This document shows positions 31,743-43,734 of a stretch of DNA of 64,000 nucleotides, piece after piece. Within the stretch, counting starts at the first letter, position 1, and the number at the start of each line of letters is the position of its first letter. The notes under the pieces are model-generated. The model made no database searches, was not told where the DNA came from, and was given only the letters and a program-made list of their open reading frames with translations. The stretch comes from a virus. Made by a program: the position numbers and the translations under genes. Location: positions 24,846-88,845 of the IMG/VR virus record IMGVR_UViG_3300048856_000029; one strand, written 5' to 3'.

Positions 31743-34031
31743 ATGAACATGCACACGCCTGCTCGGGATTACTTTCCGGGCATGGGTCAGGCTGTCGCCG
31801 ACCGAACCATCAACCGCAAGATCACCGATCCTGACGGCACCACCCGCGTCGAGACTTGGGCCGAAGTTGCCCACCGCGTAGCGCTCGGTAACTCGCTGCT
31901 CGATCCTCGCGGCGCAAACGCTGCACAGAGCGAATACATCACGCTGAACCACCATCTGCGCCAGGCCTCGCTGCTCATGTCCGGCCGGCACCTGCAGCAT
32001 GGTGACGAGACGCAGCCGGAGCGTAACCAGGAAGTCTTCACAAACTGCTCAACGGCCGCGGCCACCTTCCTGCTGTTCTATCTGCTCCTCAACGGCTCCG
32101 GTGTCGGCCGTGCCTACGACGATGCGATGATCAAGGCCGACTACAACGAGATGCCGATCGTCGTGCCGGTGATCGATTGGAGCCACAAGGATGTTCAGCG
32201 CGGCATCATCTCTGGCTACAAGACGCGCCGCGACGCCGAGCACCTCTATGCCGGCCGCAAGATAACCATCTTCGAAGTGCCAGACAGCCGCGAAGGTTGG
32301 GCAAAGGCCGTCGAAATCATCGAGCGCATGGCGTTTCAGGGTCGTCGTGACGAGGTGCTGATCCTCGACTTCACCGGCGTTCGCGAAAACGGCGCACCCA
32401 TCAAGGGAATGCAGAACCGCCCGGCTTCTGGCCCTGGGCCGCTGATGTCCGCGATCGCCAATATCGCCCTGCTGCGCGACGCCGGCATGGAGCCCTGGCG
32501 CGCTGCCATGTATGCCGACCACTATGCCGCTGAATGCGTGCTCGTCGGTGGCGCTCGGCGTGCTGCCCGCATGGCGACCAAGCACTGGAAGGACAAGTCG
32601 ATCTTCGGCTTCATCCAGTTGAAGCGCGGTGGCTTCCTCTGGTCGTCCAACAACTCCGTCACCATCGACGATGAGTTCCGCGCCGCTTGCCGCAAGGTCG
32701 CCAACCAACTCGGCGGTGGAGACTTCGAAAACTCCGTGCCGCGCCTGGTCTTCCTGCGCGCCATCAATGCCATCACGGAGACCGAGGCGCACGCCTGGAA
32801 GGTTCTGGTTGAGCTTGCCAAAGCTGCCTATTTCGATGGCACCGGCGAGCCTGGCATCATCAATCAGGACAAGCTGACACAGCGCGACGAAGGCATCGAG
32901 TCCTATGTCGATGGCCTCTATGCAGAGTCCAGCCGCTTCAAGGTCGATCCGGAGACGGTGCCGCTGATGGCTGCCCTCGCCCGCGTGGTCATGGGCGTCA
33001 AATACACCATGATCACCAACCCTTGCGGCGAAATCTGCCTGCTGATGCTTGGCGCCTACTGCGTCATAGCAGACGTGGTGCCGTTCCATGCCCAGGACGA
33101 CGACGATGCCGAAAGCGCCTTCCGTGCCGCTGTCCGGGCGCTGATGCGCACGAACACCATGGACTGCCTCTATCGCCGCGAGGTCAATCGCACCAACCGG
33201 ATCGGCGTCGGCATCACCGGCTTCCATGAATGGGCTTACAGCCGTTTCAAGTTCACCTGGCACGATATCGTCAATGAGACGAAGTCGAAGGAAATGTGGA
33301 TGACGCTGTCGCGCTTCAAGCGGGCCATCGTCGACGAGGCTGAGAAGTTCGCAAAGCTGCTCGGCGTCGTTGTTCCTCACACGAACACGACCTTCAAGCC
33401 TGCCGGCACGACCTCGAAGCTGTTTGGTCTTACCGAAGGCGCTCACCTGCCCTCGATGCGCGAGTTCATTCGTTGGGTGCAGTTCCGCAACGACGATCCG
33501 CTCGTGGCTGACTATGAGGCTATGGGCTATCCGGTGAAGCGCCTGAAGACCTACGAAGGAACGACGATCGTCGGCTTCCCGACCAAGCCGAAGATCTGCG
33601 AGTTGGACGGTGGCGAATGGGTTGTGACCGCTGCCGAGGCGACGCCCGAGGAGCAGTATGAGTTCCTGCGCCTGCTTGAGAAGTATTGGATCCACGGCGT
33701 CGATGAAAACGGCGAGTCCCTTGCCGAAGAAACCGGCAACCAGGTCAGCTATACGCTCAAGTATGATCCGAAGAAGGTCGACTTCGAGTCCTTCCTGAAC
33801 ACGCTGATCGACGGCCAGTTCTCGATCCGCTGCTGCTCGGTGATGCCGCAGACCGACACGTCGGCCTACGAGTATCAGCCGGAACAGCCGGTGACGAAGG
33901 CGCAGTTCGAAATGATTGCCTCAGCGATCTCCAACGACAACGTGAAGGAAGACATCGGCTTCGAACACGTTGACTGCGGTGCCGGCGCCTGCCCGATCGA
34001 CTTCTCGGAAGACCAGAAGGAGGCGGCGTGA
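31743..34031 (+). CDS. nrdJ: Class II (adenosylcobalamin-dependent) ribonucleotide reductase
   Basis: TNPCGEI, FKPAGTTSKL, C-terminal CGAGAC; no small-subunit gene nearby. Confidence 0.88.
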   Translation: MNMHTPARDYFPGMGQAVADRTINRKITDPDGTTRVETWAEVAHRVALGNSLLDPRGANAAQSEYITLNHHLRQASLLMSGRHLQHGDETQPERNQEVFTNCSTAAATFLLFYLLLNGSGVGRAYDDAMIKADYNEMPIVVPVIDWSHKDVQRGIISGYKTRRDAEHLYAGRKITIFEVPDSREGWAKAVEIIERMAFQGRRDEVLILDFTGVRENGAPIKGMQNRPASGPGPLMSAIANIALLRDAGMEPWRAAMYADHYAAECVLVGGARRAARMATKHWKDKSIFGFIQLKRGGFLWSSNNSVTIDDEFRAACRKVANQLGGGDFENSVPRLVFLRAINAITETEAHAWKVLVELAKAAYFDGTGEPGIINQDKLTQRDEGIESYVDGLYAESSRFKVDPETVPLMAALARVVMGVKYTMITNPCGEICLLMLGAYCVIADVVPFHAQDDDDAESAFRAAVRALMRTNTMDCLYRREVNRTNRIGVGITGFHEWAYSRFKFTWHDIVNETKSKEMWMTLSRFKRAIVDEAEKFAKLLGVVVPHTNTTFKPAGTTSKLFGLTEGAHLPSMREFIRWVQFRNDDPLVADYEAMGYPVKRLKTYEGTTIVGFPTKPKICELDGGEWVVTAAEATPEEQYEFLRLLEKYWIHGVDENGESLAEETGNQVSYTLKYDPKKVDFESFLNTLIDGQFSIRCCSVMPQTDTSAYEYQPEQPVTKAQFEMIASAISNDNVKEDIGFEHVDCGAGACPIDFSEDQKEAA

Positions 34032-34249
34032 TGGGCTGGCGGATCGTCAGCCGACCTAACTGCATCTGGTGCCGTCGGGCCAAGGCTCACCTGGCTGTCC
34101 GCGGCATTGAGTTCGAGGAGCAACTGCTTGCCACGCGGCGGGAGCAGCTCGACTTCAAGGACTGGTCCGGCGAGGACACCTTTCCGCAGATCTGGGACGG
34201 CACGACACACGTCGGCGGGTTCGACAAGCTGAAGGAATATCTCCTCTAG
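34031..34249 (+). CDS. Glutaredoxin (NrdH-like)
   Basis: CIWC active site, TFPQIW...VGGF. Confidence 0.9.
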   Translation: MGWRIVSRPNCIWCRRAKAHLAVRGIEFEEQLLATRREQLDFKDWSGEDTFPQIWDGTTHVGGFDKLKEYLL

Positions 34250-34264
34250 CTGAGATATCGGGGT

Positions 34265-34286
34265 TAGGGCTGCGAACGCAGCCCTA
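34265..34286. terminator. Hairpin between convergent genes (probable bidirectional terminator)
   Basis: TAGGGCTGCG-aa-CGCAGCCCTA followed by TTCTCTTT. Confidence 0.65.
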
Positions 34287-34844
34287 TTCTCTTTGCATTA
34301 ATTGGGAAAGCTTTTCAAATGGAAGAGTCGCAACCTTCGTGATGAGTGCAACCGCGATCATTATATGAAGGCGAATGCCGATCCATCCCGCGTGACGCGG
34401 CCGATCCAGAGAGAGAGCCTCGTTATACTCATCCCTTGCATCAAGTATCATCTGCTCCACCACCCGCTCGAAAACCTTCTTCGGAAGGATAAATCGGAGT
34501 GCGCCGGAAACCACATGACCAGGAGCTTTGTAGAGACGAGGTTTCGCGATTTTCCTCGTGTTTGCTACCGTTGCAATATGCGGAAATGGAGTAAAAATTT
34601 TTAAAGTGCCGTTCTTCTGAGACTCTTCCAAGTGTTCCACAACAGCGCGGTAACGCTCCGAAGCGGTCGCGAAATGCTTGGTTTGTATGTACACGGTTTC
34701 CGAAAAATCGAGGGTCAACTGCGTGAAGTCCGGTTTCTCAGCCCTCTGCCGCACCGTGCTGCTAATCCGCATACTGCCAGACGTGTACAAAACATCGTCC
34801 TTGAAGCATTTGATTATCGGAAGCGGCTTTTGATCGTCACTCAT
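34284..34844 (-). CDS. Hypothetical protein with C-terminal hydrophobic segment, coupled to the PadR gene
   Basis: Low-GC ORF overlapping the PadR stop by 4 nt. Confidence 0.65.
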   Translation of the reverse strand: MSDDQKPLPIIKCFKDDVLYTSGSMRISSTVRQRAEKPDFTQLTLDFSETVYIQTKHFATASERYRAVVEHLEESQKNGTLKIFTPFPHIATVANTRKIAKPRLYKAPGHVVSGALRFILPKKVFERVVEQMILDARDEYNEALSLDRPRHAGWIGIRLHIMIAVALITKVATLPFEKLSQLMQRE

Positions 34845-35143
34845 GCCATTGCTCCCGAATAATCACTCATGACATTCCTTGCAGCGAGAGTGGCGCGGTA
34901 GGCCCGCTGACCTTCGCCCGTAATGAAGTATCGGCGCCTTGCCATACCAGATTGGCCGGGAACCTGCTCGGCTTCAGAACGAAGCCACTTCTTATCCTCC
35001 ATACGAGACAGGTGGACATAGATCGTCGCTTTTTTTAACTGTGATGAAGCCTTCACCATTTCAAGACCGTACATTCCCTGCTTGCCTACAAGCAGATTGA
35101 GCACCTCAAACTGAATGTCAGACACGTTGATGTTGAAGCTCAT
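34841..35143 (-). CDS. PadR-family winged-helix regulator
   Basis: MYGLEMVK...TIYVHLSRMEDKKWL...RRRYFITGEG. Confidence 0.85.
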   Translation of the reverse strand: MSFNINVSDIQFEVLNLLVGKQGMYGLEMVKASSQLKKATIYVHLSRMEDKKWLRSEAEQVPGQSGMARRRYFITGEGQRAYRATLAARNVMSDYSGAMA

Positions 35144-35239
35144 AATACGCACCGTCGTAGTTTGGACACGAGTGACTCTTGCACCCTGTAAGAGTGAGTC
35201 TTACACCTAGTTAGATACGTCCGCAACTCAAAATTCCTG

Positions 35240-35283
35240 TTGCAGCCCATGTGAGCTTCGTCTATTAAGTAAATACTGACTGA
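35240..35283 (+). promoter_or_regulatory. Promoter TTGCAG-N17-TATTAA with overlapping operator
   Basis: TTGCAG 35240, TATTAA 35263, operator ATTAAGTAAATACTGACTGA 35264-35283. Confidence 0.75.
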
Positions 35284-35370
35284 TAGCGAGTAGTCATCGG
35301 TTCAATTAGATACGACGAGGTGCGAATGAAGCTCTGAGCAATAGGTGGCCGTTCGAACGGTATTGACTAA

Positions 35371-35479
35371 CCAAGACGTGCCGGGAGCGTCAGAAAACAA
35401 GCCCGGCGCTTATGTGAGGCGCTGCGGTCTTGGAGATAAGTGAGGTCTCCTTCGATCGATAGGCCAGCGCCTCTCATAA
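35371..35479 (+). ncRNA. Candidate structured RNA with possible pseudoknot
   Basis: 35371-77 pairs 35427-33; 35380-85 pairs 35402-07; 35411-24 pairs 35465-78 (one mismatch); no credible ORF. Confidence 0.4.
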
Positions 35480-35481
35480 AC

Positions 35482-35568
35482 GATCTGGTAGCGAAGTGGT
35501 TGAACGCGCAGGACTGCAAATCCTGTTCCGTAAGGGCGTCGCTGGTTCGAATCCAGCCCAGATCTCCA
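35482..35568 (+). tRNA. tRNA-Cys(GCA), 87 nt, long variable arm, encoded CCA
   Basis: Acceptor GATCTGG/CCAGATC, U73, anticodon arm CAGGA-CTGCAAA-TCCTG, T arm GCTGG-TTCGAAT-CCAGC, 15-nt variable region. Confidence 0.92.
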
Positions 35569-35570
35569 TT

Positions 35571-35650
35571 CAGCGGCAGCTTCTCCCCTGGGCTGTCCGT
35601 CTCCGACCAGGAGGTTCTCTCCTCCTCCCAAGCGCCTCCTGGTCGGCCCA
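35571..35650 (+). ncRNA. Cuckoo/ar14-like two-hairpin sRNA candidate
   Basis: Hairpin with TTCTCCCCT loop, then 12-bp stem CCGACCAGGAGG/CCTCCTGGTCGG with a CTCCTCCTCCC loop. Confidence 0.55.
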
Positions 35651-35675
35651 CTTTCAACAATGAGGACAAAGACAA

Positions 35676-35951
35676 ATGGGTCAGGTTCTTCCATTCCCCA
35701 CGCGCGAACGAGCGCAACCGGCGCCACAGCAGCCGACGAAGATCACCGAAGCCGAATGCCGGCTGCTCGACAAGATCAAGCTGGTGACGGATCACTCGCT
35801 CGACGTGGTCAATTCCGGCCAGGCGCTCATGCGCGACTTCCTCGCCGGCAAGAAGATGGTCGGCGCCAAGTTCGAATACCTTGGCAAGAATTATCAGGTG
35901 CTGGTTTCGCTGGAAGAGCAGACCGATGCTCCACCGCCCCGTTACGCCTGA
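35676..35951 (+). CDS. Hypothetical protein
   Basis: 91 aa, host-like codons. Confidence 0.65.
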   Translation: MGQVLPFPTRERAQPAPQQPTKITEAECRLLDKIKLVTDHSLDVVNSGQALMRDFLAGKKMVGAKFEYLGKNYQVLVSLEEQTDAPPPRYA

Positions 35952-36117
35952 TCCCGACATCGAGCTGCGGCGCAAGATCGCCGCGCTCCGCGAACAAGAA
36001 ACTTCCCACTACATCGCCGGCAACCGCATCGAAGCCCATGAGGCCGCGATCGACGCCGCGCGTCTAACAAAGGAGCTGAGACGTTGCACAACGGAAACCC
36101 TTTTGAGCGGCGGGTGA
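35926..36117 (+). CDS. Small hypothetical protein
   Basis: ATG 35926, overlapping neighbours. Confidence 0.45.
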   Translation: MLHRPVTPDPDIELRRKIAALREQETSHYIAGNRIEAHEAAIDAARLTKELRRCTTETLLSGG

Positions 36118-36293
36118 CTGACAAGGAGCCGCGAAACGAAAACAAGTTGAAGGCTGTGGCCGGCCTTCTGCAGAGCCTCTCCTACCGGGAGATGCAGAAG
36201 TTCGTCCGTATGATGACGAATGGCTCCAATGCCGACGACTTCGCCACCCGGCTCCTCGACGTTACCGACCAAATCCTCAACGAAAAGGAGTAA
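36084..36293 (+). CDS. Small hypothetical protein
   Basis: AAAGGAG RBS, TTG start. Confidence 0.55.
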   Translation: MHNGNPFERRVTDKEPRNENKLKAVAGLLQSLSYREMQKFVRMMTNGSNADDFATRLLDVTDQILNEKE

Positions 36294-36296
36294 CCA

Positions 36297-37253
36297 GTGT
36301 CGAAAGACCAGATGTTCGCCAAGGTCGTGCTTGCATCCAAGCCAACCAACGGCGCGCCACCCATCATCACAATGCACTGGCACTACCCTCGCCCCATTCA
36401 CGGCGAGGTCATGACGCATCGCGTCTTCAGCCGGAACGCTAGATCCTCGCGCGCCGTGCCTGTCGCGACGATGCTGAAGGAGATCCGTGAGGCTCCGTTC
36501 GTTCCGTGGCACTGGGGAAAGAACCAGAAGGGGATGCAGGCCGGCGAAGAGTGCAAAGGGCTCGTTGATATGAGCGGCACCCTGTTTGCTGGCATCGGCA
36601 ATCCGCTCGTGCGCGAAAGCGCCTGGAAGCTGGCCGCAGAGTCCGCCGCTGGTATGGCCGAAGCCTTCTCCGACGCCGGCTACCATAAGCAGATCGCCAA
36701 CCGTCTGATTGAGCCGTTCTCCTGGATCGACACGCTGATCACCTCGACGTCCTGGGCGAACTTCCTGCATCTGCGCGATCACAAGGACGCTGAGCCGCAC
36801 TTCCAGGATCTCGCCGCGATGGTTCGGGAGGCGATCGACAGTGCAGAGTTCGAACCTCTCCGCCCCGGACAGTGGCATCTCCCGTATGTCCCGCATTGGG
36901 AGCGCGCAGATATCGTTAAGGCAATTACCGGCAAAAAATGGGACGAAGATTGGGATCAACGTGACTACCTGGCGATGGCGAAGATCTCCGTCGCCCGTTG
37001 CGCCCGCATCTCCTACAAGCCTTTCGACGGAGACGGCTCCATTGAGAAGGAGCTGGAGCGCTATGAGACGCTCGTCGGCTCGTCACCGCTGCACGCCTCA
37101 CCGGCCGAGCACCAGGCCACACCTGATTGGACTGAGGTCGATTATCACGGTGAGCCGCTGTGGGCCAACCAGAACCTGTCCGGCAATCTCGGCCCCGGCT
37201 GGATCCAGTATCGCAAGACACTGCCCGGCGAATACATCGCCGACGCGGCATGA
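36297..37253 (+). CDS. thyX: Flavin-dependent thymidylate synthase (ThyX/Thy1 phage type)
   Basis: THRVFSRNARSSRAVP, HKQIANRLIEPF, NFLHLR, HASPAEHQA. Confidence 0.88.
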   Translation: MSKDQMFAKVVLASKPTNGAPPIITMHWHYPRPIHGEVMTHRVFSRNARSSRAVPVATMLKEIREAPFVPWHWGKNQKGMQAGEECKGLVDMSGTLFAGIGNPLVRESAWKLAAESAAGMAEAFSDAGYHKQIANRLIEPFSWIDTLITSTSWANFLHLRDHKDAEPHFQDLAAMVREAIDSAEFEPLRPGQWHLPYVPHWERADIVKAITGKKWDEDWDQRDYLAMAKISVARCARISYKPFDGDGSIEKELERYETLVGSSPLHASPAEHQATPDWTEVDYHGEPLWANQNLSGNLGPGWIQYRKTLPGEYIADAA

Positions 37254-37271
37254 TCAGTCAAAACTGAAAGG
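37252..37271 (+). promoter_or_regulatory. Repeated operator copy
   Basis: GATCAGTCAAAACTGAAAGG. Confidence 0.6.
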
Positions 37272-37278
37272 ATAGGAA

Positions 37279-37686
37279 ATGCTGAAAATCATCGGCTATA
37301 GCTTCGGCGGTTTCGCCCTGCTTGCCGCCCTCTCCCTCGCCTCGGGTGCCTTCACCTATATCACCGCGCCCTTCTTCGGCCGTGTCGAGGCTGAGCGCCA
37401 GATAGAGTCCGGCGCATCCCGCACCGCGCTTTACAACGAGTTCTTCGACCTATGCGCCGGTGTGCAGGCGATCGAAGGCCAGATCGACGCACAGATTGAC
37501 GTGAAAAATCCGAACGCACCGATCAACATCGCCGGCTTGCAGTCGCGCCGTTCTCAGGTGATCGCGCAATACAACGCGAACGCCACCAAGAGCTACACGG
37601 CCGCCCGCTTCCTCGACGCCAAGCTGCCCTATCAGCTCGTGGCTGGCACCTATACCGGCGCAAACAAGACCGTCTGCGCTCAATAA
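37279..37686 (+). CDS. Membrane-anchored/exported protein
   Basis: N-terminal hydrophobic helix. Confidence 0.75.
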   Translation: MLKIIGYSFGGFALLAALSLASGAFTYITAPFFGRVEAERQIESGASRTALYNEFFDLCAGVQAIEGQIDAQIDVKNPNAPINIAGLQSRRSQVIAQYNANATKSYTAARFLDAKLPYQLVAGTYTGANKTVCAQ

Positions 37687-37710
37687 TCCTCAATCCAACA
37701 GGAGAATAAA

Positions 37711-38286
37711 TTGAAATTCCTCACCCGCATTGCACTTTTTGCCGCCCTCGCCTTCTCGGCAGTCGGGCTATCTGCCTGTGAGCCGACCCAGGCCGGGACC
37801 GCACGCCAGGCTGCCGCTCGTGCCGAGGAGAGCAACCGCGCCGCCCAGGACAACGTCATGGCGACCGCGACGGCGAAAATTCCCGTGCCTGTCACCAAGA
37901 ACTTTCTGGCACGCAAGAATCTCGCCGAATACATGAAGCGCATGGATGATCCAGCCAAGACCTGGTACGTCTATATCCTCGCCGACAGCGGCGCCAAGCT
38001 CGGCTATTACGTCGCCTCGACTTACCCGCAGTCCTCTTGCTCCTTCATGACGCCGCCCGAGCAGGTCAAGGAAATCAGCGTTGCCGGCGAGGGTGCCAAT
38101 CCAATCGCAATTACGTCCGCACCGTCGCTGATGGGTGTGTATTACAAAGGCGGTGGATGCGAGAACACCTTCTTCTTCGACGCCAATTCGAACGCTCTGA
38201 TCATTCTAACCGGCGTGAAGACCTGGGCCTCCGACGTCCCGCTGAACGTTGACGCCCCTCTCATCACGGTTGCGAAGTCCCAATAG
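37711..38286 (+). CDS. Lipoprotein
   Basis: Signal peptide with lipobox LSAC. Confidence 0.8.
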   Translation: MKFLTRIALFAALAFSAVGLSACEPTQAGTARQAAARAEESNRAAQDNVMATATAKIPVPVTKNFLARKNLAEYMKRMDDPAKTWYVYILADSGAKLGYYVASTYPQSSCSFMTPPEQVKEISVAGEGANPIAITSAPSLMGVYYKGGGCENTFFFDANSNALIILTGVKTWASDVPLNVDAPLITVAKSQ

Positions 38287-38313
38287 CAGCCCGCGACGTT
38301 TCTGCTATTAAAT

Positions 38314-38333
38314 GATAAGTCATTATTGACTAG
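38314..38333 (+). promoter_or_regulatory. Operator copy after a GCTATTAA box
   Basis: GATAAGTCATTATTGACTAG. Confidence 0.8.
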
Positions 38334-38359
38334 ATAAGCGCAAGCAGATAGGCAGGAAT

Positions 38360-38575
38360 ATGAACGAAACGATCTCCTACCAGCTCAGTGAGCACCGGGA
38401 AGATACCATCGCAAACCGCTTCGGCGCCGGCTGGTATTTCACATTCGATACAGAACGCGAGCCGACCTATGTCGGCCCGTTCGACACACAGGCTCTCGCT
38501 GATGAGGCTGCCAAAGCCGAGATCCAGCAGGCCATGACCGATTTCGTAGCTGAAGCCCTCGGCTTCGCAGCATAA
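38360..38575 (+). CDS. Small hypothetical protein
   Basis: 71 aa, CAGGAA RBS. Confidence 0.7.
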   Translation: MNETISYQLSEHREDTIANRFGAGWYFTFDTEREPTYVGPFDTQALADEAAKAEIQQAMTDFVAEALGFAA

Positions 38576-38587
38576 AGGAGAATTTCA

Positions 38588-39058
38588 ATGGGTGGCATCA
38601 TCCGAGACGAGGTCAAGGTTGCAGTGAAGGTGCTGAAGGAAGGCGCACGTTTGCCGACCTACGGCACTGATCAGGCAGCCGGCGCAGACCTCTACGCCTA
38701 TGTCGAAGGCGACGCGATCAAGCTCGACGTTGGCGAGCGCAAGCTCATCCCGTGCGAGATCGCCATCGAACTACCGGAAGGCTACGAGGCGCAGGTTCGG
38801 CCGCGCTCGGGCCTGGCGCTCAAGCAGGGCATCACCGTCCTCAACGCCCCTGGTACGATCGACAGCGACTATCGCGGCCCGATCGGCGTCGTCCTCTACA
38901 ACGCCGGCCAGAAGCCCTTCTACATCAACCACCATGACCGCATCGCTCAGATGGTCGTGGCGCCGGTCTCGCTGGCGCTCTTCTCGATCACCGAGGATGA
39001 GCTTTCCGAAACCGAGCGTGGTGAGGGCGGCTATGGCTCGACCGGAGTCGCCGGCTGA
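38588..39058 (+). CDS. dut: Trimeric dUTPase
   Basis: AGADL, RPRSGLA, GTIDSDYRG, RIAQ, RGEGGYGSTG. Confidence 0.96.
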   Translation: MGGIIRDEVKVAVKVLKEGARLPTYGTDQAAGADLYAYVEGDAIKLDVGERKLIPCEIAIELPEGYEAQVRPRSGLALKQGITVLNAPGTIDSDYRGPIGVVLYNAGQKPFYINHHDRIAQMVVAPVSLALFSITEDELSETERGEGGYGSTGVAG

Positions 39059-39684
39059 TGCTCTATGCCTGCATTGGCGCTCACCGCTCCGGCAAGACGA
39101 CCACGGCTCAGAAGGTCGCGGAACAGCTTGGCATCGAGTTCGTCGATGCCTCGTTCAACGTGGCCCGCGAATTCGGCTATGATCCGGTCGGCTTTCTGCC
39201 CCTCGCCGACCGTCTGCTGATGCAGATGAAGGTGATGGAGCATCATCTGAAGGTCATCGAGGCGGCGCAGCGGCCGGCAATCACCGATCGCACGCCCCTC
39301 GACTTCTTCGCCTATACGCTTGCGGAATACGGCATTCTCTCGCACGTGGCAGCCAATGACGCGGAGCTGCTCGCGACCGTGAAGCGTTTCAGCGAAGTCT
39401 GCATCCAGATGACGGTCATGCACTACGACATGGTCTTCCTCTTGGAGACCCTGCCGGTCTATGTCGTGGACAACACCAAAGCCACGCCCGCGGAGAATCC
39501 CGCGTTCCAGCTCCATATCGACTCGCTCATTCATGGCGCGCTGTCCAAGGCACACAGCTCCGACCTCAACTATGCGGTCGTGCCGGTAATGGAACAGCAG
39601 AAACGGGTCGATTTCATCTGCGACCAGATCGTCGAGCGGATGAACGACATCGAGGAGCTGCGGAAAGTCGCAGGAATGCACTGA
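39058..39684 (+). CDS. P-loop nucleotide kinase-like (AAA_28/NadR-type)
   Basis: GAHRSGKTT, TDRTPLD. Confidence 0.75.
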   Translation: MLYACIGAHRSGKTTTAQKVAEQLGIEFVDASFNVAREFGYDPVGFLPLADRLLMQMKVMEHHLKVIEAAQRPAITDRTPLDFFAYTLAEYGILSHVAANDAELLATVKRFSEVCIQMTVMHYDMVFLLETLPVYVVDNTKATPAENPAFQLHIDSLIHGALSKAHSSDLNYAVVPVMEQQKRVDFICDQIVERMNDIEELRKVAGMH

Positions 39685-39698
39685 CCATCAAACTCTGC

Positions 39699-39746
39699 CA
39701 CGCGCATCCCTGCGATGCGCGTGCTATTAAGTAAGTATTGAATGAC
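39699..39746 (+). promoter_or_regulatory. 10-bp hairpin, TATTAA box and operator copy upstream of rIIA
   Basis: CACGCGCATC/GATGCGCGTG then TTAAGTAAGTATTGAATGAC. Confidence 0.6.
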
Positions 39747-39781
39747 AAGTGAAAAACGCTTGCGTTGAGAAGGAGAGATAA

Positions 39782-42172
39782 ATGCAGGTTTCACAGTTGG
39801 TCGAGCTCGATACCCACGCCGTTATCGGCGGTGGCAAGGCGCGCTCATTCTCGATGTCGGACTCGGCTGAGTTCTTCACCGTCCTGTCCGATACCCTTTA
39901 CCGCGACAAGAAGCGCGCAGTCGTCCGCGAAGTCATCTGCAATGGCTGGGACGCGCATATCATGAATGATTGCACGGACACCTACCTCGAGGTGACGCTG
40001 ACCGAGGACGAGATCATCTTCAAGGATTTCGGGCCAGGCATCGCCGACGAAAAGATCGTGCCTATCTACTGCGTCTATGGCGCGTCGACCAAGGTCCGCG
40101 ACGCGAACCAGACAGGCGGCTTTGGCCTCGGGTCCAAGTCACCCTTTGCCTATTCCGACCATTTCACCGTCACGAGCTGCTTTGAAGGCATGAAGCGGGT
40201 TTACGCGATCAGCCGAGGCGGCACTGAAACGGAAGGTCGGCCTGAGATCCGCGAGATGGTCAGCGTGCCGACGACCGAGACCGGCATCACCGTGACGATC
40301 CCGCTGCGCGACAAGAGCGACCTGCCGGAGTTCCAGCAGAACATCTTCTCCGTCGCCTATCAGGGTGGCATGAAGGTGAAGCTCAACGGCAGGCAGCTCG
40401 CAACGCTGAACTACGAGCCTGCGCGTAAGCAGGGCTTCTGTGCCATCGAGAACGTGCGCGCTGAACTGCGCGAGTCATATGCCTATCTGCTTTACGGCAC
40501 CGTTCTCTATCCAATCACCACAACGGATGCCAGAATCTCCGAGGCGGCCTTGAGGGCCGGTAATCTCGTCGGCAACGGCTACAGACTTGTGCTGATCGCG
40601 CCGCCCAACTCGGTCGGCATCACGCCCAGCCGCGAGTCCCTTTCCTATTCCGAGTTAACGACGCAGACCATCCTTCGCCTCCTGAAACGTGCGACGAAGT
40701 CGCTCGAGGCGAGCATCCCGAGCGCCGGCAAGAAGATCATCACTCGCCTCGCGGCAACGATGGAGCTCGACAAGGCCGGCGACGGCACGATGCAGAACAT
40801 GTCCATGCGCCAGGCTCACCAGATGCCGCAGACCCTGGTCACGCCGGAGCAGATCGCGGCATACACTATCCGGTGCGATTTCGATCGCATCCCGCGTGCC
40901 ACGCGCCGCAAGTGGATCTACGACGGTCTGGCGAAGAAGTATCCGCACATGCGCGCAACGCTTCGCAAGGCTCGTGGCGCGGGCGTGGACTTCTCCGTGA
41001 TGACGAGACAACACGCTCACACCCGGTTCGTCCGGCTGGCCGTCAAAACCGGCCTGCTCAATGGCGCGTTGATCTACGACGACAACCACAGCTACCACGG
41101 CACGTCCCGGCTCGACAGCATCCGCAGGGAGTTGGGTGACGGTGCCATCGGAAAGAACATCTACGTGGCGCCGAACCGTCGCGAGCTGACGTCGATGATC
41201 GTCGGCAGCAAGAGCGACCCAACCTCACGCAGCCGCAATCTCTATCTTGGCCTGGTCGTTGGACAGAAGCCGTCGCGCGATCTGCTGGACCGGCTGCGCA
41301 CGGAAGCGAAGACTTTTGGTTTCACCCTTGACGAATACGACTGGGAGTTCGTGAAGCCGAAGGTGGTTCGAAAGCAGAAGGCGAGCGAGAAGTTCCATGC
41401 CTTCGTCGACTACCGCGACAAAGATAAGACGATGGTCGAGCCGAGCCTCGAGGCGCCTAAGTTCTTCATGCGCGGCTACACTTACGATGGCGAGCTGCGC
41501 CTGGGTATCGATGATCACGGCGCTCGCCATATCCTCGCCGAGATGTATCCCGAGCTCGCCGTCATTACGACGAAGGAGCAGGAGCAGAAGCTTCGCGCGG
41601 CCGGCGTTGTGCATGTGATCGAGGACGTTGAGAAGCGTCTGGCAAAGATGGTCAAGTGCCGTGAGGTGCAATACGGGCTGATGGTGCAGGACCGGAATTT
41701 CTGCAACAAGACCGGGCTCACCTACTACTACGAAAGCTACAAGCTTTGTGAAACGGCACTCGCACTCGCCCGGCTGCACATGGACATTGCCCGGCTGATC
41801 TTCCCGGATCGCGCAAAGCCGGGCGAGAAGTGGAAGGAAGCCAGGCAGCTTGTTCGCGTTATGCGAACCTTCCCGCACAGCAGCCAGAACTATGCCGACA
41901 GCAAGGAAGCACCCGCATCCGTCCTGTCGAAGCTCGAAAATGCGGCTCGTGAGACGTTCAAGGATATGATCGTCACCAAGAACGATGCGGCGAAGCGGCT
42001 CGGCTATCTGTCGGTGCTGATCGGATCCGAATGGATCACCGATCGCAGCAGCCTCGACGAGCCGGCCCGTGACAAACTTATCGGCGTAATCCGCTATCTG
42101 CAGCGCTTTGCCGATAAGTCAAAACTGACTGTCAAGCACACCAACACCATCGCCCAGAAGGAGGCAGCATGA
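39782..42172 (+). CDS. rIIA-like protein (GHKL ATPase)
   Basis: LSDTLYRDKKRAVVREVICNGWDAH, DFGPG, STK, GGFGLGSKSPFAYSD. Confidence 0.88.
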   Translation: MQVSQLVELDTHAVIGGGKARSFSMSDSAEFFTVLSDTLYRDKKRAVVREVICNGWDAHIMNDCTDTYLEVTLTEDEIIFKDFGPGIADEKIVPIYCVYGASTKVRDANQTGGFGLGSKSPFAYSDHFTVTSCFEGMKRVYAISRGGTETEGRPEIREMVSVPTTETGITVTIPLRDKSDLPEFQQNIFSVAYQGGMKVKLNGRQLATLNYEPARKQGFCAIENVRAELRESYAYLLYGTVLYPITTTDARISEAALRAGNLVGNGYRLVLIAPPNSVGITPSRESLSYSELTTQTILRLLKRATKSLEASIPSAGKKIITRLAATMELDKAGDGTMQNMSMRQAHQMPQTLVTPEQIAAYTIRCDFDRIPRATRRKWIYDGLAKKYPHMRATLRKARGAGVDFSVMTRQHAHTRFVRLAVKTGLLNGALIYDDNHSYHGTSRLDSIRRELGDGAIGKNIYVAPNRRELTSMIVGSKSDPTSRSRNLYLGLVVGQKPSRDLLDRLRTEAKTFGFTLDEYDWEFVKPKVVRKQKASEKFHAFVDYRDKDKTMVEPSLEAPKFFMRGYTYDGELRLGIDDHGARHILAEMYPELAVITTKEQEQKLRAAGVVHVIEDVEKRLAKMVKCREVQYGLMVQDRNFCNKTGLTYYYESYKLCETALALARLHMDIARLIFPDRAKPGEKWKEARQLVRVMRTFPHSSQNYADSKEAPASVLSKLENAARETFKDMIVTKNDAAKRLGYLSVLIGSEWITDRSSLDEPARDKLIGVIRYLQRFADKSKLTVKHTNTIAQKEAA
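42113..42132 (+). promoter_or_regulatory. Operator copy embedded in the rIIA 3' end
   Basis: GATAAGTCAAAACTGACTGT. Confidence 0.7.
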
Positions 42173-43734
42173 GCACGAATATTGTCGTCATTGTCGGCGC
42201 AATCGCCGGTGCCAAGGGGATCACCCTTTACCACAAGGATGGCCGCGAAACGAACCTGGCACTTGAAAGCTGGCGCACGAAGCAGATCATGGACAAGGTA
42301 ACGCCCTTCATTGCGCGACGCGAACCTGTCGAGATTGATCTCGACACCTATGACGTCCACGCTCACATCGAGCGTAAGTCGGGCGGCCTGATCCGGTTCG
42401 TGCGCGAGAAGATCGCGTCCGTCAGAACCTGGTTCAAGCCGACTGCCGGCGACGATGCCTCTAAGGAGGTGATGGCGTTTCAGCAGACCGAGCCGGTCGA
42501 GGGACACGTCTATGGCGTCCCTGCCGCTGCTCCCGACCAGGAAACCGTCGTTGCTGTCATCGGTGACAGGAAGGTGCCGGGTGTCGAGGCGCTCGAAAAG
42601 CACATGGAGCACGCGCTCGCTACCGGCAACACCGAGGGCGTCGAGAACTTCATGAAGCGCTGCGCTGCCGTCATCGACACGCGCGGGCACTCGATCCAGG
42701 AACTGCTCAACTTCATGCGCAAGGGCGACCTGCCGATCGCTAAGGACGGCTCGATCATCGCCTATAAGGTGCTGCAAACAGCGACGATCGACGGGAAGCA
42801 GGTGATTGTCGACTGCGCCTCCAGGAAGGTCATCCAGCGCGTCGGCTCGCGCGTCGTCATGGATGAGAAGCTGGTTGATCCGAGCCGAAGAACCCAGTGC
42901 TCGTCCGGACTGCATATCGCGCGGCGCGGCTATCTCGGCCACTTCGGCGGCGACGTGATTATGATGGTCAAGATCGCTCCCGAAGACGTCATCGCCGTCC
43001 CGGTCGGAGAGCCCGATAAGATGCGCGTCGCCGCCTATCATGTCGTCGGTCAGATCCCCAACAACGTTCACGCGCTGCTGCGCTCCAATAAGCCGATGAC
43101 GGGCGACGACGCTGCCAGCCGATTGCTTGCCGACGTGATCGCCGGCAACCATGTCGGTGTGCTCGAAGAGGTTCGCATCACTGGACCTTACGGCGCCGGG
43201 CTGAAGATCACGCCGCTTGTCGAGCAGTCGCCGGCAATCAAGGAAGGCATCAGTGGCACGGCCAAGGCCCTTGATGATGAACAGAAGCCTGCTGTTACGG
43301 CCAAGGAACTGCGTGAAGCGGTGCGGGCGGTCGCTGCAGACGCTCCAGCACCTGAAGCCGAGATCACACGTAACCACGTTCAGATGATCAATGGCGAGCT
43401 GCATGTCGACGGCGAGAAGATGGAAACTGAGACAGCGCAGGAACGGCGCAACCGCTTGAAGCGCGAGACGCGTGCCGCGAAGAAGCCGAGTCCGCAGGTG
43501 CAGGAAGCAGCAAAGACCGGCGATCTCTCCGCTGCGATCACCCAGGCGGTTATGCCAAAGGCGGCGCCGGCTGATCAGTCAAAATTGACTGGAAAGCCCA
43601 ATGAGAAGCATGAGCGGGCGCTCGCTCTGCACAAGGAAGGAAAGTCGAACCGCGCGATCGAGGCCGAGCTCCACATCTGCCGCAAGACCCTGAAGAAGCT
43701 TTTCGACAAGCACGGCCTGAAGCCCAACGGCTGA
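42169..43734 (+). CDS. rIIB-like protein with C-terminal HTH-like extension
   Basis: LPIAKDGSIIAYK, VDPSRRTQCSSGLH, KIAPEDVIAVP, KMRV; C-terminal SNRAIEAELHICRKTL. Confidence 0.85.
   Translation: MSTNIVVIVGAIAGAKGITLYHKDGRETNLALESWRTKQIMDKVTPFIARREPVEIDLDTYDVHAHIERKSGGLIRFVREKIASVRTWFKPTAGDDASKEVMAFQQTEPVEGHVYGVPAAAPDQETVVAVIGDRKVPGVEALEKHMEHALATGNTEGVENFMKRCAAVIDTRGHSIQELLNFMRKGDLPIAKDGSIIAYKVLQTATIDGKQVIVDCASRKVIQRVGSRVVMDEKLVDPSRRTQCSSGLHIARRGYLGHFGGDVIMMVKIAPEDVIAVPVGEPDKMRVAAYHVVGQIPNNVHALLRSNKPMTGDDAASRLLADVIAGNHVGVLEEVRITGPYGAGLKITPLVEQSPAIKEGISGTAKALDDEQKPAVTAKELREAVRAVAADAPAPEAEITRNHVQMINGELHVDGEKMETETAQERRNRLKRETRAAKKPSPQVQEAAKTGDLSAAITQAVMPKAAPADQSKLTGKPNEKHERALALHKEGKSNRAIEAELHICRKTLKKLFDKHGLKPNG
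43573..43592 (+). promoter_or_regulatory. Operator copy embedded in the rIIB 3' end
   Basis: GATCAGTCAAAATTGACTGG. Confidence 0.7.

What the first reader, a model, noticed from the sequence alone, without database searches (positions are those of the whole stretch)
35482..35568. tRNA-Cys(GCA) with a long variable arm (class II body)
Seen in the sequence: 87 nt with GCA anticodon and U73 (Cys identity elements), but a 15-nt variable region (TTCCGTAAGGGCGTC, forming a short stem with a GTAA loop) and an A13-A22-type D stem as in Tyr/Ser/Leu tRNAs. Established: bacterial tRNA-Cys is normally class I; long-arm Cys tRNAs are rare (e.g. selC*-type). Inference: a Tyr/Ser-derived anticodon-shifted tRNA that may evade tRNA-targeting defences or be mischarged with Ser at Cys codons. 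It is the only tRNA in the window.
Basis: partly seen in the sequence, partly recalled or inferred. Interest (0 to 1): 0.7.

Follow-up and report, generated by a model that had tools for sequence, protein, structure and literature searches.

The report
Phage cysteine tRNA with extra arm
A soil phage-plasmid carries a real cysteine tRNA gene with an extra hairpin arm; the same design recurs in many phages and is the only cysteine tRNA of one bacterial class, so it is odd in shape, apparently undescribed in print, and most likely ordinary in action (it inserts cysteine).

Summary
Window 35482-35568 (+) is an 87-nt tRNA-Cys(GCA) with a 7/5 acceptor/T branch, U73, an encoded CCA and a 15-nt variable region that forms a 3-bp stem with a GUAA loop. 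It is the only tRNA in the 115.7-kb genome, a relative of the Rhizobium phage-plasmid B1VFA.

- **Not rare.** The same tRNA occurs in at least five relatives. About 60 IMG/VR contigs and several jumbo phages carry long-arm Cys tRNAs. A complete Phycisphaeraceae chromosome has one as its sole tRNA-Cys, beside a canonical CysRS.
- **Not selC\*-type.** selC* tRNAs are 8/4; this one is 7/5.
- **The R13:A22 D stem is also a hallmark of ordinary tRNA-Cys.**
- **Body looks Cys-like.** With anticodon, N73 and the arm masked, the body scores best against a class-I Cys profile. Nearest-neighbour and tree tests leave a Tyr origin open.
- **Arm geometry is Tyr-like, not Ser-like.** Serine mischarging is unlikely.
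- **Interchangeable with a normal Cys tRNA.** A close relative, RHph_X66, has a class-I tRNA-Cys at the same locus.

Best reading: the host CysRS charges it and it decodes cysteine codons. What the arm does is unknown. This scan had already found the family on other DNA. I found no paper describing it.

The parts
35482..35568 (+). tRNA-Cys(GCA) gene, 87 nt including the encoded CCA; 7/5 cloverleaf with a long variable arm
   Evidence: ARAGORN; Rfam RF00005, 63.7 bits
35491..35507 (+). D arm: 3-bp stem (GCG/CGC), A13:A22 mismatch, 9-nt loop with G15 and G18G19
   Evidence: bracket string; 13:22 statistics
35516..35518 (+). anticodon GCA in the loop CUGCAAA (A36-A37-A38), identical to the loop of the Shinella host-type tRNA-Cys
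35526..35540 (+). variable region, 15 nt: 1-nt spacer, 3-bp stem (35527-35529 with 35534-35536), GUAA tetraloop (35530-35533), 4-nt 3' spacer ending in C48
   Evidence: pair changes U.G / C-G / U-A across relatives; GNRA loops
35565..35565 (+). discriminator U73, followed by the encoded CCA at 35566-35568
   Evidence: U73 in 113 of 114 long-arm and 85 of 85 short Cys tRNAs, A73 in 34 of 34 Tyr
35407..35482 (+). strong hairpin directly abutting the tRNA 5' end (18-nt arms; -41.1 kcal/mol, z -3.46); role unknown, possibly a processing or termination signal
35603..35646 (+). perfect 12-bp inverted repeat 35 nt downstream of the tRNA (-26.7 kcal/mol, z -3.59), with a weak T run after it; possible terminator of the tRNA transcript
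   Evidence: not called by the terminator scan

Best explanation
This is a functional, phage-plasmid-borne cysteine tRNA of class-II shape. It is transcribed from the 500-bp intergenic gap between a PadR-like gene and the nucleotide-metabolism genes. It already carries its CCA end. The host's own CysRS charges it with cysteine through U73 and the GCA anticodon, and it reads UGC/UGU like any tRNA-Cys. Its effect is to add to the host's Cys-tRNA supply (one gene among the 51 tRNA matches on the Shinella chromosome examined). The extra hairpin (3 bp plus a GNRA loop) would point away from CysRS and be tolerated. Shown here: the gene, its fold, its identity nucleotides, its conservation, its interchangeability with a class-I Cys tRNA, and the existence of a bacterium that lives on such a tRNA alone. 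Inferred: charging by CysRS, expression, and the benefit to the phage. What the arm itself contributes is not known.
For: (1) The cloverleaf is intact, with all the usual invariant positions. (2) Cys identity set: GCA, U73, G1-C72, G15:C48, purine13:A22 and an A36A37A38 loop. These are the same features as the class-I tRNA-Cys of a Shinella chromosome. (3) With anticodon, N73, the arm and the search-pattern columns masked, the body scores 45.9 against a class-I Cys profile, versus Tyr 29.8, Ser 19.6 and Leu 18.8. By the same test 109 of 114 long-arm Cys tRNAs classify as Cys. Leave-one-out accuracy is 78/85, 30/34, 83/91 and 76/78. (4) Purifying selection: the tRNA is 82-93% identical in B1VFA, a Shinella plasmid and three IMG/VR contigs. 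In the same comparisons its flanks do not align and the neighbouring genes are 67-75% identical. (5) Stem changes keep pairing in the variable, acceptor, anticodon and T stems. (6) RHph_X66 is a phage reported 93-94.5% identical to B1VFA/V1VFA-S (PMC12509600). It has a 76-nt class-I tRNA-Cys at the same spot upstream of rIIA, with aligned flanks, so the two forms substitute for each other. (7) Proof of principle: a complete 3.15-Mb Phycisphaeraceae chromosome has 44 tRNAs with a single tRNA-Cys, which is 83 nt and class II, plus a canonical CysRS at 307 bits. (8) The phage has no CysRS of its own, so a host enzyme must charge the tRNA. (9) CCA is encoded, as in all the Shinella tRNAs examined.
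Against: There are no expression or charging data for this tRNA or any relative. The reported absence of a Cys tRNA in V1VFA-S (PMC12509600) shows it is dispensable. Cys codons are not visibly enriched in the phage (about 1.1% of codons), so a supply benefit is not demonstrated. Nearest-neighbour and tree analyses do not exclude a Tyr ancestry. Tolerance of the arm by a Rhizobiaceae CysRS is inferred from other organisms, not tested.
Confidence: 0.78

Rival explanations
1. The extra arm is an adaptation. It makes the phage's Cys tRNA a poor substrate for a host tRNA-cleaving or tRNA-depleting defence, or marks it for a phage factor, while the tRNA still inserts cysteine. This adds to the main reading and does not exclude it.
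For: Long-arm Cys tRNAs are recurrent and conserved in many unrelated phage groups. The variable hairpin is maintained: GNRA loops in 74 of 114, and at least 3 Watson-Crick pairs in 65% against 39% in shuffles. The same viral contigs hold long-arm versions of other class-I isotypes, such as Lys and Asn.
Against: No Cys-specific defence nuclease turned up in the literature search. The anticodon loop, the usual target of such nucleases, is identical to the host type. A free-living bacterial class uses the same design without any phage context. A sister phage does well with a class-I form and another with none (PMC12509600). The genome has no RNA ligase for tRNA repair.
Confidence: 0.12
2. It is a recoded tRNA-Tyr (U35 to C and A73 to U), and that descent is what gives it the class-II shape. 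Function today is still Cys decoding.
For: The arm geometry is 1/3/4/4 (spacer/stem/loop/spacer), close to the Tyr mode of 1/3/3-4/3. The best single neighbour outside the family is a Bacillus-plasmid tRNA-Tyr (0.769). Outside the family, the better BLAST hits in phages and plasmids include many Tyr tRNAs. In the tree the clade sits next to 11 Tyr tRNAs.
Against: The profile test favours a Cys body by 16 nats. The R13:A22 mismatch is typical of Cys and less so of Tyr. Family-wide, 74 of 114 long-arm Cys tRNAs are nearest to class-I Cys. It is only 64% identical to the Shinella tRNA-Tyr. Support on the relevant tree nodes is only 0.71-0.81.
Confidence: 0.3
3. It is a mischarging tRNA that puts Ser or Tyr at Cys codons.
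For: The only support is the class-II shape.
Against: N73 is U, whereas Ser tRNAs have G73 in 78 of 91 and Tyr tRNAs have A73 in 34 of 34. The Ser arm mode is 1 nt / 5-7 bp / 1 nt, against 3 bp and a 4-nt 3' spacer here. C35 replaces the U35 of Tyr. U73 and GCA are the major CysRS determinants (PMC9976931). The same design is the only Cys tRNA of a bacterium. The locus alternates with a normal Cys tRNA.
Confidence: 0.03
4. It is a relic or a DNA-level element (attachment site or recombination hotspot) and not an active tRNA.
For: It is dispensable in one relative (PMC12509600) and its position has moved relative to neighbouring genes.
Against: The 99%-complete genome has no tyrosine integrase and carries ParB genes, so it looks like a plasmid prophage, not an integrating one. 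The tRNA is far better conserved than its surroundings, and base changes keep the stems paired. The Rfam score of 63.7 bits is that of a normal tRNA.
Confidence: 0.05

Closest known systems
Canonical class-I bacterial tRNA-Cys (e.g. the 74-nt tRNA-Cys of the Shinella chromosome, L384; E. coli cysT)
   Same: GCA anticodon, U73, G1-C72, 3-bp D stem with purine13:A22, G15:C48, CUGCAAA loop, 7/5 branch, and a body that scores best against the Cys profile.
   Different: The variable region is 15 nt with a stem-loop instead of 4-5 nt, and the D loop is 9 nt. Only 67% overall identity to the host-type gene.
selC* tRNA-Cys (Mukai et al. 2017, PMC5389517)
   Same: Cys identity elements (U73, GCA) on a tRNA with a long variable arm.
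   Different: selC* has an 8/4 branch, often an A51a bulge and a longer anticodon stem, and sits with selB*/cysS* in anaerobes that have Sec machinery. This one is a plain 7/5 tRNA in a phage-plasmid. Examples of the 95-96-nt type turned up separately in the genome scan (L224, L233, L251, L284).
Bacterial tRNA-Tyr (class II)
   Same: Overall length, D-loop size, and a short 3-bp variable stem with a 3-4-nt 3' spacer. It differs in the anticodon by one base.
   Different: A73 and GUA in all 34 Tyr tRNAs examined, against U73 and GCA here. 13:22 is often paired in Tyr. The profile score is lower.
7/5 long-arm tRNA-Cys of phages and of Phycisphaerae
   Same: Same architecture and identity nucleotides. 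Cultured examples are B1VFA, Pseudomonas phages D6 and RVTF4, Caulobacter phage CcrPW and Xanthomonas phage XacN1, all annotated simply as tRNA-Cys where annotated. It is the sole tRNA-Cys of a Phycisphaeraceae chromosome.
   Different: The groups differ greatly in sequence and in arm length (12-24 nt). The window's clade is confined so far to B1VFA-like phage-plasmids, plus one Jeotgalibacillus megaplasmid copy at about 75% identity.
Allo-tRNAs and nematode nev-tRNAs (class-II tRNAs with non-cognate anticodons; PMC5389517, PMC3333845)
   Same: A class-II shape combined with an anticodon of a class-I amino acid.
   Different: Those keep the Ser or Leu identity set and are charged against their anticodon. 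Here the identity set matches the anticodon, so no recoding is expected.

Membership tests
tRNA (Rfam RF00005) | Cloverleaf with conserved core, scoring above the family's gathering score | tested here: met
   63.7 bits against 29, full-length match; ARAGORN call
tRNA-Cys (CysRS substrate) | Anticodon G34-C35-A36 | tested here: met
   GCA at 35516-35518
tRNA-Cys (CysRS substrate) | Discriminator U73 | tested here: met
   T at 35565. U73 in 198 of 199 Cys tRNAs surveyed and in 0 of 34 Tyr. It is a major determinant according to PMC9976931.
tRNA-Cys (CysRS substrate) | Cys-type body (acceptor, D arm, stem ends) once anticodon, N73 and the variable arm are masked | tested here: met
   Profile score: Cys 45.9, Tyr 29.8, Ser 19.6, Leu 18.8. 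Nearest-neighbour and tree tests are indecisive.
tRNA-Cys (CysRS substrate) | Actually aminoacylated with cysteine | not testable with these tools
   Needs an in vitro charging assay or tRNA sequencing. The only indirect support is a bacterium with such a tRNA as its sole tRNA-Cys plus a canonical CysRS.
Class II tRNA architecture | Variable region longer than 10 nt forming a stem-loop, 3-bp D stem, enlarged D loop | tested here: met
   15-nt region, 3-bp stem plus GUAA loop, 9-nt D loop. Relatives keep the pairing.
selC* tRNA-Cys | 8/4 acceptor/T branch (8-bp acceptor stem, 4-bp T stem, often an A51a bulge) | tested here: not met
   7-bp acceptor and 5-bp T stem with no bulge; definition from PMC5389517
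selC* tRNA-Cys | Genomic link to selB*/cysS* or Sec machinery | tested here: not met
   Neighbours are a PadR-like gene, RNR, ThyX, dUTPase, dTMP kinase and rIIA. No CysRS gene in the genome.
Bacterial tRNA-Tyr | A73 and GUA anticodon | tested here: not met
   U73 and GCA here; 34 of 34 Tyr tRNAs have A73
tRNA-Ser / allo-tRNA (SerRS substrate) | G73 and a long variable stem (5-7 bp) with a 1-nt 3' spacer | tested here: not met
   U73, a 3-bp stem and a 4-nt 3' spacer here. The Ser mode is 1/5-7/4/1, with G73 in 78 of 91.

The most novel reading that the evidence does not exclude
The variable hairpin is not neutral. It is a selected feature that lets phage-borne (and Phycisphaerae) Cys tRNAs escape or engage a factor that reads tRNA shape, such as a tRNA-directed defence nuclease, a decay pathway or a phage protein. 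Long-arm versions of class-I isotypes would then form a general, unrecognised layer of phage-host conflict over the tRNA pool.
Probability: 0.12. Interest if true: 0.8.

Novelty: new variant of a known kind. Interest (0 to 1): 0.45.

Why it matters
Textbooks and current reviews restrict long variable arms in bacteria to tRNA-Leu, -Ser, -Tyr and -Sec, with selC* as a special 8/4 exception. A plain 7/5 cysteine tRNA with such an arm breaks that rule. It is conserved in a phage-plasmid lineage, recurs across many phages, and is the sole Cys tRNA in Phycisphaerae. This shows that CysRS, EF-Tu and the ribosome accept the shape.

It also gives a natural, matched pair for experiments: B1VFA with the class-II allele and RHph_X66 with a class-I allele at the same locus. 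That pair could show what, if anything, a variable arm does for a tRNA.

For annotation, isotype callers that weigh the arm may mislabel such genes. For this window itself the practical conclusion is modest: an accessory Cys tRNA, not a recoding device.

Tried and rejected
- **Codon supply.** The phage uses Cys at about 1.1% of codons (TGC 269, TGT 77). My host comparison set (greedy longest ORFs around Shinella tRNA loci) is clearly contaminated by spurious high-GC ORFs, so no conclusion was drawn.
- **Expression.** No RNA holder is listed. The only full holder is a soil metagenome that may be the source of this DNA. No reads were laid.
- **tRNA-repair context.** No PF09414 RNA ligase in the genome, although the relative RHph_X66 is annotated with an RNA ligase 2.
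- **Attachment-site idea.** No PF00589 integrase.
- **Phage-encoded CysRS.** None.
- **Promoter/terminator scan.** One weak sigma-70-like site 335 nt upstream inside the PadR-like ORF, and no canonical terminator.
- **Tree of tRNA bodies.** The window clade is supported at 0.81, but its neighbours are a mix of Tyr and Cys, so the origin stays undecided.
- **Alphaproteobacterial, actinobacterial and other genome hits to the search pattern (L231, L262, L263, L279, L293 and others).** These are not tRNAs by ARAGORN or Rfam. They are chance matches and give no sign of long-arm Cys on Rhizobiales chromosomes.
- **BLAST of the 82-nt viral group against cultured phages.** No match.
- **Relatives of G000.** They cannot be drawn for a virus record.
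- **Literature searches.** No description of a 7/5 long-arm tRNA-Cys was found.
- **Formal covariation counting on the MAFFT alignment A3.** Not run, because the variable arms of L039 and the Jeotgalibacillus copy are out of register there. Pairing was read per sequence instead.

Full report
**The object**

ARAGORN finds one tRNA in the window, tRNA-Cys(GCA) at 35482-35568 on the + strand. It is also the only tRNA in the whole 115,723-bp, 58.9% G+C genome. Rfam's tRNA model matches it end to end at 63.7 bits, E=1.7e-11.

The sequence and ARAGORN's bracket string give:
- a 7-bp acceptor stem;
- a 3-bp D stem with A13:A22 and a 9-nt D loop;
- a 5-bp anticodon stem with the loop CUGCAAA;
- a 15-nt variable region;
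- a 5-bp T stem with the loop UUCGAAU;
- U73 and an encoded CCA.

**The genome**

This is a virus record, estimated 99% complete. It came from a soil metagenome.
- It has no tyrosine integrase and has two ParB-domain ORFs.
- Its rIIA, thyX and dUTPase genes are 67-75% identical at the DNA level to those of Rhizobium phages B1VFA and RHph_X66.
- B1VFA and V1VFA-S are published as siphophages with phage-plasmid features (PMC12509600).
- A 117-kb circular Shinella zoogloeoides plasmid carries the same tRNA.

The tRNA lies in a 500-bp gap. A PadR-like ORF sits on the minus strand at 34841-35152. On the plus strand follows a run of ORF 35660-36067, thyX, dUTPase, a thymidylate kinase-like ORF and rIIA at 39782-42172. 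Ribonucleotide reductase lies upstream.

**Relatives of the tRNA**

The same 87-88-nt tRNA occurs at 82-93% identity in five other records:
- B1VFA;
- the Shinella plasmid;
- three IMG/VR contigs of 70-121 kb (L010, L039, L040).

In these comparisons the alignment stops within a few bases of the tRNA ends. In the relatives with alignable neighbouring genes (B1VFA, L039, L040) the tRNA sits just upstream of rIIA, not upstream of thyX as here. So the gene is much better conserved than its surroundings and has moved.

Changes in stems keep pairing:
- the first pair of the variable stem is U.G (window, L040), C-G (B1VFA, Shinella, L010) or U-A (L039);
- the loop is GUAA, GGAA or GAAA in five of the six;
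- the acceptor, anticodon and T stems show paired changes too.

**A natural swap**

RHph_X66 is reported 93-94.5% identical to B1VFA/V1VFA-S (PMC12509600). At the same place upstream of rIIA it has a 76-nt class-I tRNA-Cys. The flanks and the 3' third of the tRNA align with B1VFA; the rest does not. V1VFA-S is reported to have no Cys tRNA at all (PMC12509600). A class-I and a class-II Cys tRNA therefore occupy one locus in sister phages. This is what one expects if both do the same job and the job is accessory.

**How common is the design?**

I scanned for a Cys anticodon arm followed at class-II distance by a T loop.
- **IMG/VR.** The pattern hit 94 contigs, uncapped. ARAGORN finds a 79-93-nt tRNA-Cys(GCA) in about 60 of them. 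They fall into several unrelated sequence groups, often inside large tRNA arrays.
- **Cultured phages.** Pseudomonas phages D6 and RVTF4, Caulobacter phage CcrPW and Xanthomonas phage XacN1 have one. Where annotated, it is labelled simply tRNA-Cys.
- **A megaplasmid.** A Jeotgalibacillus megaplasmid has one in a tRNA array.
- **Bacterial genomes.** I took one complete Phycisphaeraceae chromosome and recovered all 44 of its tRNAs. It has exactly one tRNA-Cys, 83 nt and class II, plus a canonical CysRS.

A 7/5 long-arm tRNA-Cys can therefore carry all cysteine decoding in a cell.

The alphaproteobacterial hits in that scan are not tRNAs. The one Rhizobiaceae chromosome I could examine has a normal 74-nt tRNA-Cys. 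So the design is a phage trait here, not a host trait.

**Identity**

I surveyed 1,271 unique tRNAs called from all the loci fetched.
- U73 is present in 113 of 114 long-arm and 85 of 85 short Cys tRNAs.
- Tyr has A73 in 34 of 34, and Ser has G73 in 78 of 91.
It is less typical of Tyr, which is paired in 20 of 34.
- G15:C48, G1-C72 and the anticodon loop match the Shinella tRNA-Cys.

U73 and GCA are the major CysRS determinants (PMC9976931). The phage has no CysRS of its own.

**The arm**

The table gives geometry as 5' spacer / stem / loop / 3' spacer.

| tRNA | Geometry |
|---|---|
| Window | 1 / 3 / 4 / 4 |
| Tyr (mode) | 1 / 3 / 3-4 / 3 |
| Ser (mode) | 1 / 5-7 / 4 / 1 |
| Leu (mode) | 0 / 4-5 / 4 / 1 |

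The arm is Tyr-like and unlike Ser. From my own knowledge (Himeno et al. 1990, not checked here), converting tRNA-Tyr to a Ser acceptor needed a longer arm and G73. Together with U73 this makes Ser charging improbable.

Family-wide, the hairpin is more than chance:
- 65% have at least three Watson-Crick pairs, against 39% in shuffles (maximum 51% in 200 shuffles);
- 74 of 114 loops are GNRA.

**Origin**

The evidence is mixed.
- **Nearest single neighbour.** Leaving out anticodon, N73 and the arm, the window's best non-family neighbour is a Bacillus-plasmid tRNA-Tyr (0.769), just ahead of a phage class-I Cys (0.754).
- **Host tRNAs.** Against the Shinella tRNAs nothing exceeds 68% identity, so it is not a recent host capture.
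- **Family-wide neighbours.** 74 of 114 long-arm Cys tRNAs are nearest to class-I Cys. My Cys set is larger than my Tyr set, which biases this count.
- **Tree.** A FastTree of the bodies supports the window clade at 0.81 and places it beside a mix of 11 Tyr, 3 short Cys and 1 Ser tRNA at 0.71.
- **Profile test.** Position-specific isotype profiles, with the columns fixed by my search pattern also masked, classify the window's body as Cys: 45.9 against Tyr 29.8, Ser 19.6 and Leu 18.8. They classify 109 of 114 long-arm Cys tRNAs the same way, with leave-one-out accuracy of 88-97%.

I lean towards a tRNA-Cys that gained a hairpin, but a recoded Tyr remains possible, at roughly 0.3.

**Mechanism**

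- **Most likely.** The host CysRS charges the tRNA through U73 and GCA. It then delivers Cys at UGC/UGU, adding to the output of the host's tRNA-Cys gene, which was single on the Shinella chromosome examined.
- **Tolerance of the arm (inference).** CysRS is a class-I enzyme that approaches from the D-arm and minor-groove side, so the arm should face solvent. This is textbook synthetase geometry; I did not model it.
- **Not shown.** Expression, charging and benefit to the phage.
- **The arm as a counter-defence device.** This stays speculative. The anticodon loop is host-like, no Cys-directed defence nuclease turned up, and a free-living lineage uses the same design.

**Comparison with the known**

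- selC* tRNA-Cys (PMC5389517) shares the long arm and the Cys identity. It is defined by an 8/4 branch and a link to Sec machinery; both were tested here and not met.
- Allo-tRNAs and nev-tRNAs are class-II tRNAs charged against their anticodon. Here the identity set and the anticodon agree.
- Six literature searches found no description of a 7/5 long-arm tRNA-Cys.
- This scan had already met the family on other DNA, both in phages and in Phycisphaerae. I reached the same points independently before reading those notes, and I re-tested them.

**Verdict**

This is a new variant of a known kind: unusual in shape, probably ordinary in function, and one more member of a family that deserves a proper description and a charging experiment.

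Noticed in passing
window 35407-35482 and 35603-35646: Two strong hairpins bracket the tRNA. An 18-nt-arm inverted repeat ends exactly at the tRNA's first base (-41.1 kcal/mol, z -3.46). A perfect 12-bp inverted repeat lies 35 nt downstream (-26.7 kcal/mol, z -3.59). They may be processing or termination signals. The flanks do not align with relatives.
   Followed up: partly
L385 4068-4143 (Rhizobium phage RHph_X66, MW960030.1): A 76-nt class-I tRNA-Cys sits at the same locus upstream of rIIA where B1VFA has the 87-nt class-II one. The T arm and the downstream flank align, but the 5' two thirds do not. An RNA ligase 2 gene is annotated a few kb downstream in X66. The window's genome has no PF09414 match.
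   Followed up: partly
L003 220-527 (Jeotgalibacillus malaysiensis 603-kb plasmid, CP009417.1): An 88-nt long-arm tRNA-Cys about 75% identical to the window's sits in an unannotated tRNA array. ARAGORN calls its neighbours as tRNA-Gly(UCC) and a 67-nt tRNA-Lys(UUU), which is unusually short for a bacterial tRNA. This is a Firmicute copy of a tRNA otherwise seen in Rhizobiaceae phage-plasmids.
   Followed up: no
viral loci, e.g. L011 237-321: Long-arm versions of other class-I isotypes occur in the same IMG/VR contigs. Examples are an 85-nt tRNA-Lys(UUU), and among unique Ile, 5 Lys, 4 Met, 3 Thr, 3 Trp and 2 Asn with variable regions of 9 nt or more. Some may be ARAGORN miscalls.
   Followed up: no
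L224, L233, L251, L284 (genome contigs): These loci hold 93-96-nt tRNA-Cys(GCA) calls with very long arms, and their length suggests the selC* type. They come from Solibacteraceae, a Firmicutes MAG, Carboxydothermus islandicus and Coriobacteriaceae. I did not check their acceptor/T configuration.
   Followed up: no
L240 4122-4374 (Phycisphaerales MAG JAYVRG010000067.1): ARAGORN finds two 81-nt long-arm tRNA-Cys genes in this locus, and the two pattern matches lie 216 nt apart. The two genes differ in the D arm. Every other Phycisphaerae locus showed a single copy.
   Followed up: no
window 31743-42172; G000:C1:102663-103769: A nucleotide-metabolism block (ribonucleotide reductase, ThyX, dUTPase, thymidylate kinase-like ORF) is followed by rIIA and a probable rIIB (42169-43734, named by position and the X66 annotation; Pfam found no family for it). 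A PadR-like regulator at 34841-35152 (-) faces the tRNA. Outside the window are two ParB_N ORFs, and the genome has no integrase, which fits a plasmid prophage lifestyle.
   Followed up: partly
L119, L134, L162 (IMG/VR): These viral contigs carry a class-I tRNA-Cys identical or nearly identical to the Shinella chromosomal tRNA-Cys. They are probably prophage ends integrated at tRNA-Cys, or host carry-over.
   Followed up: no
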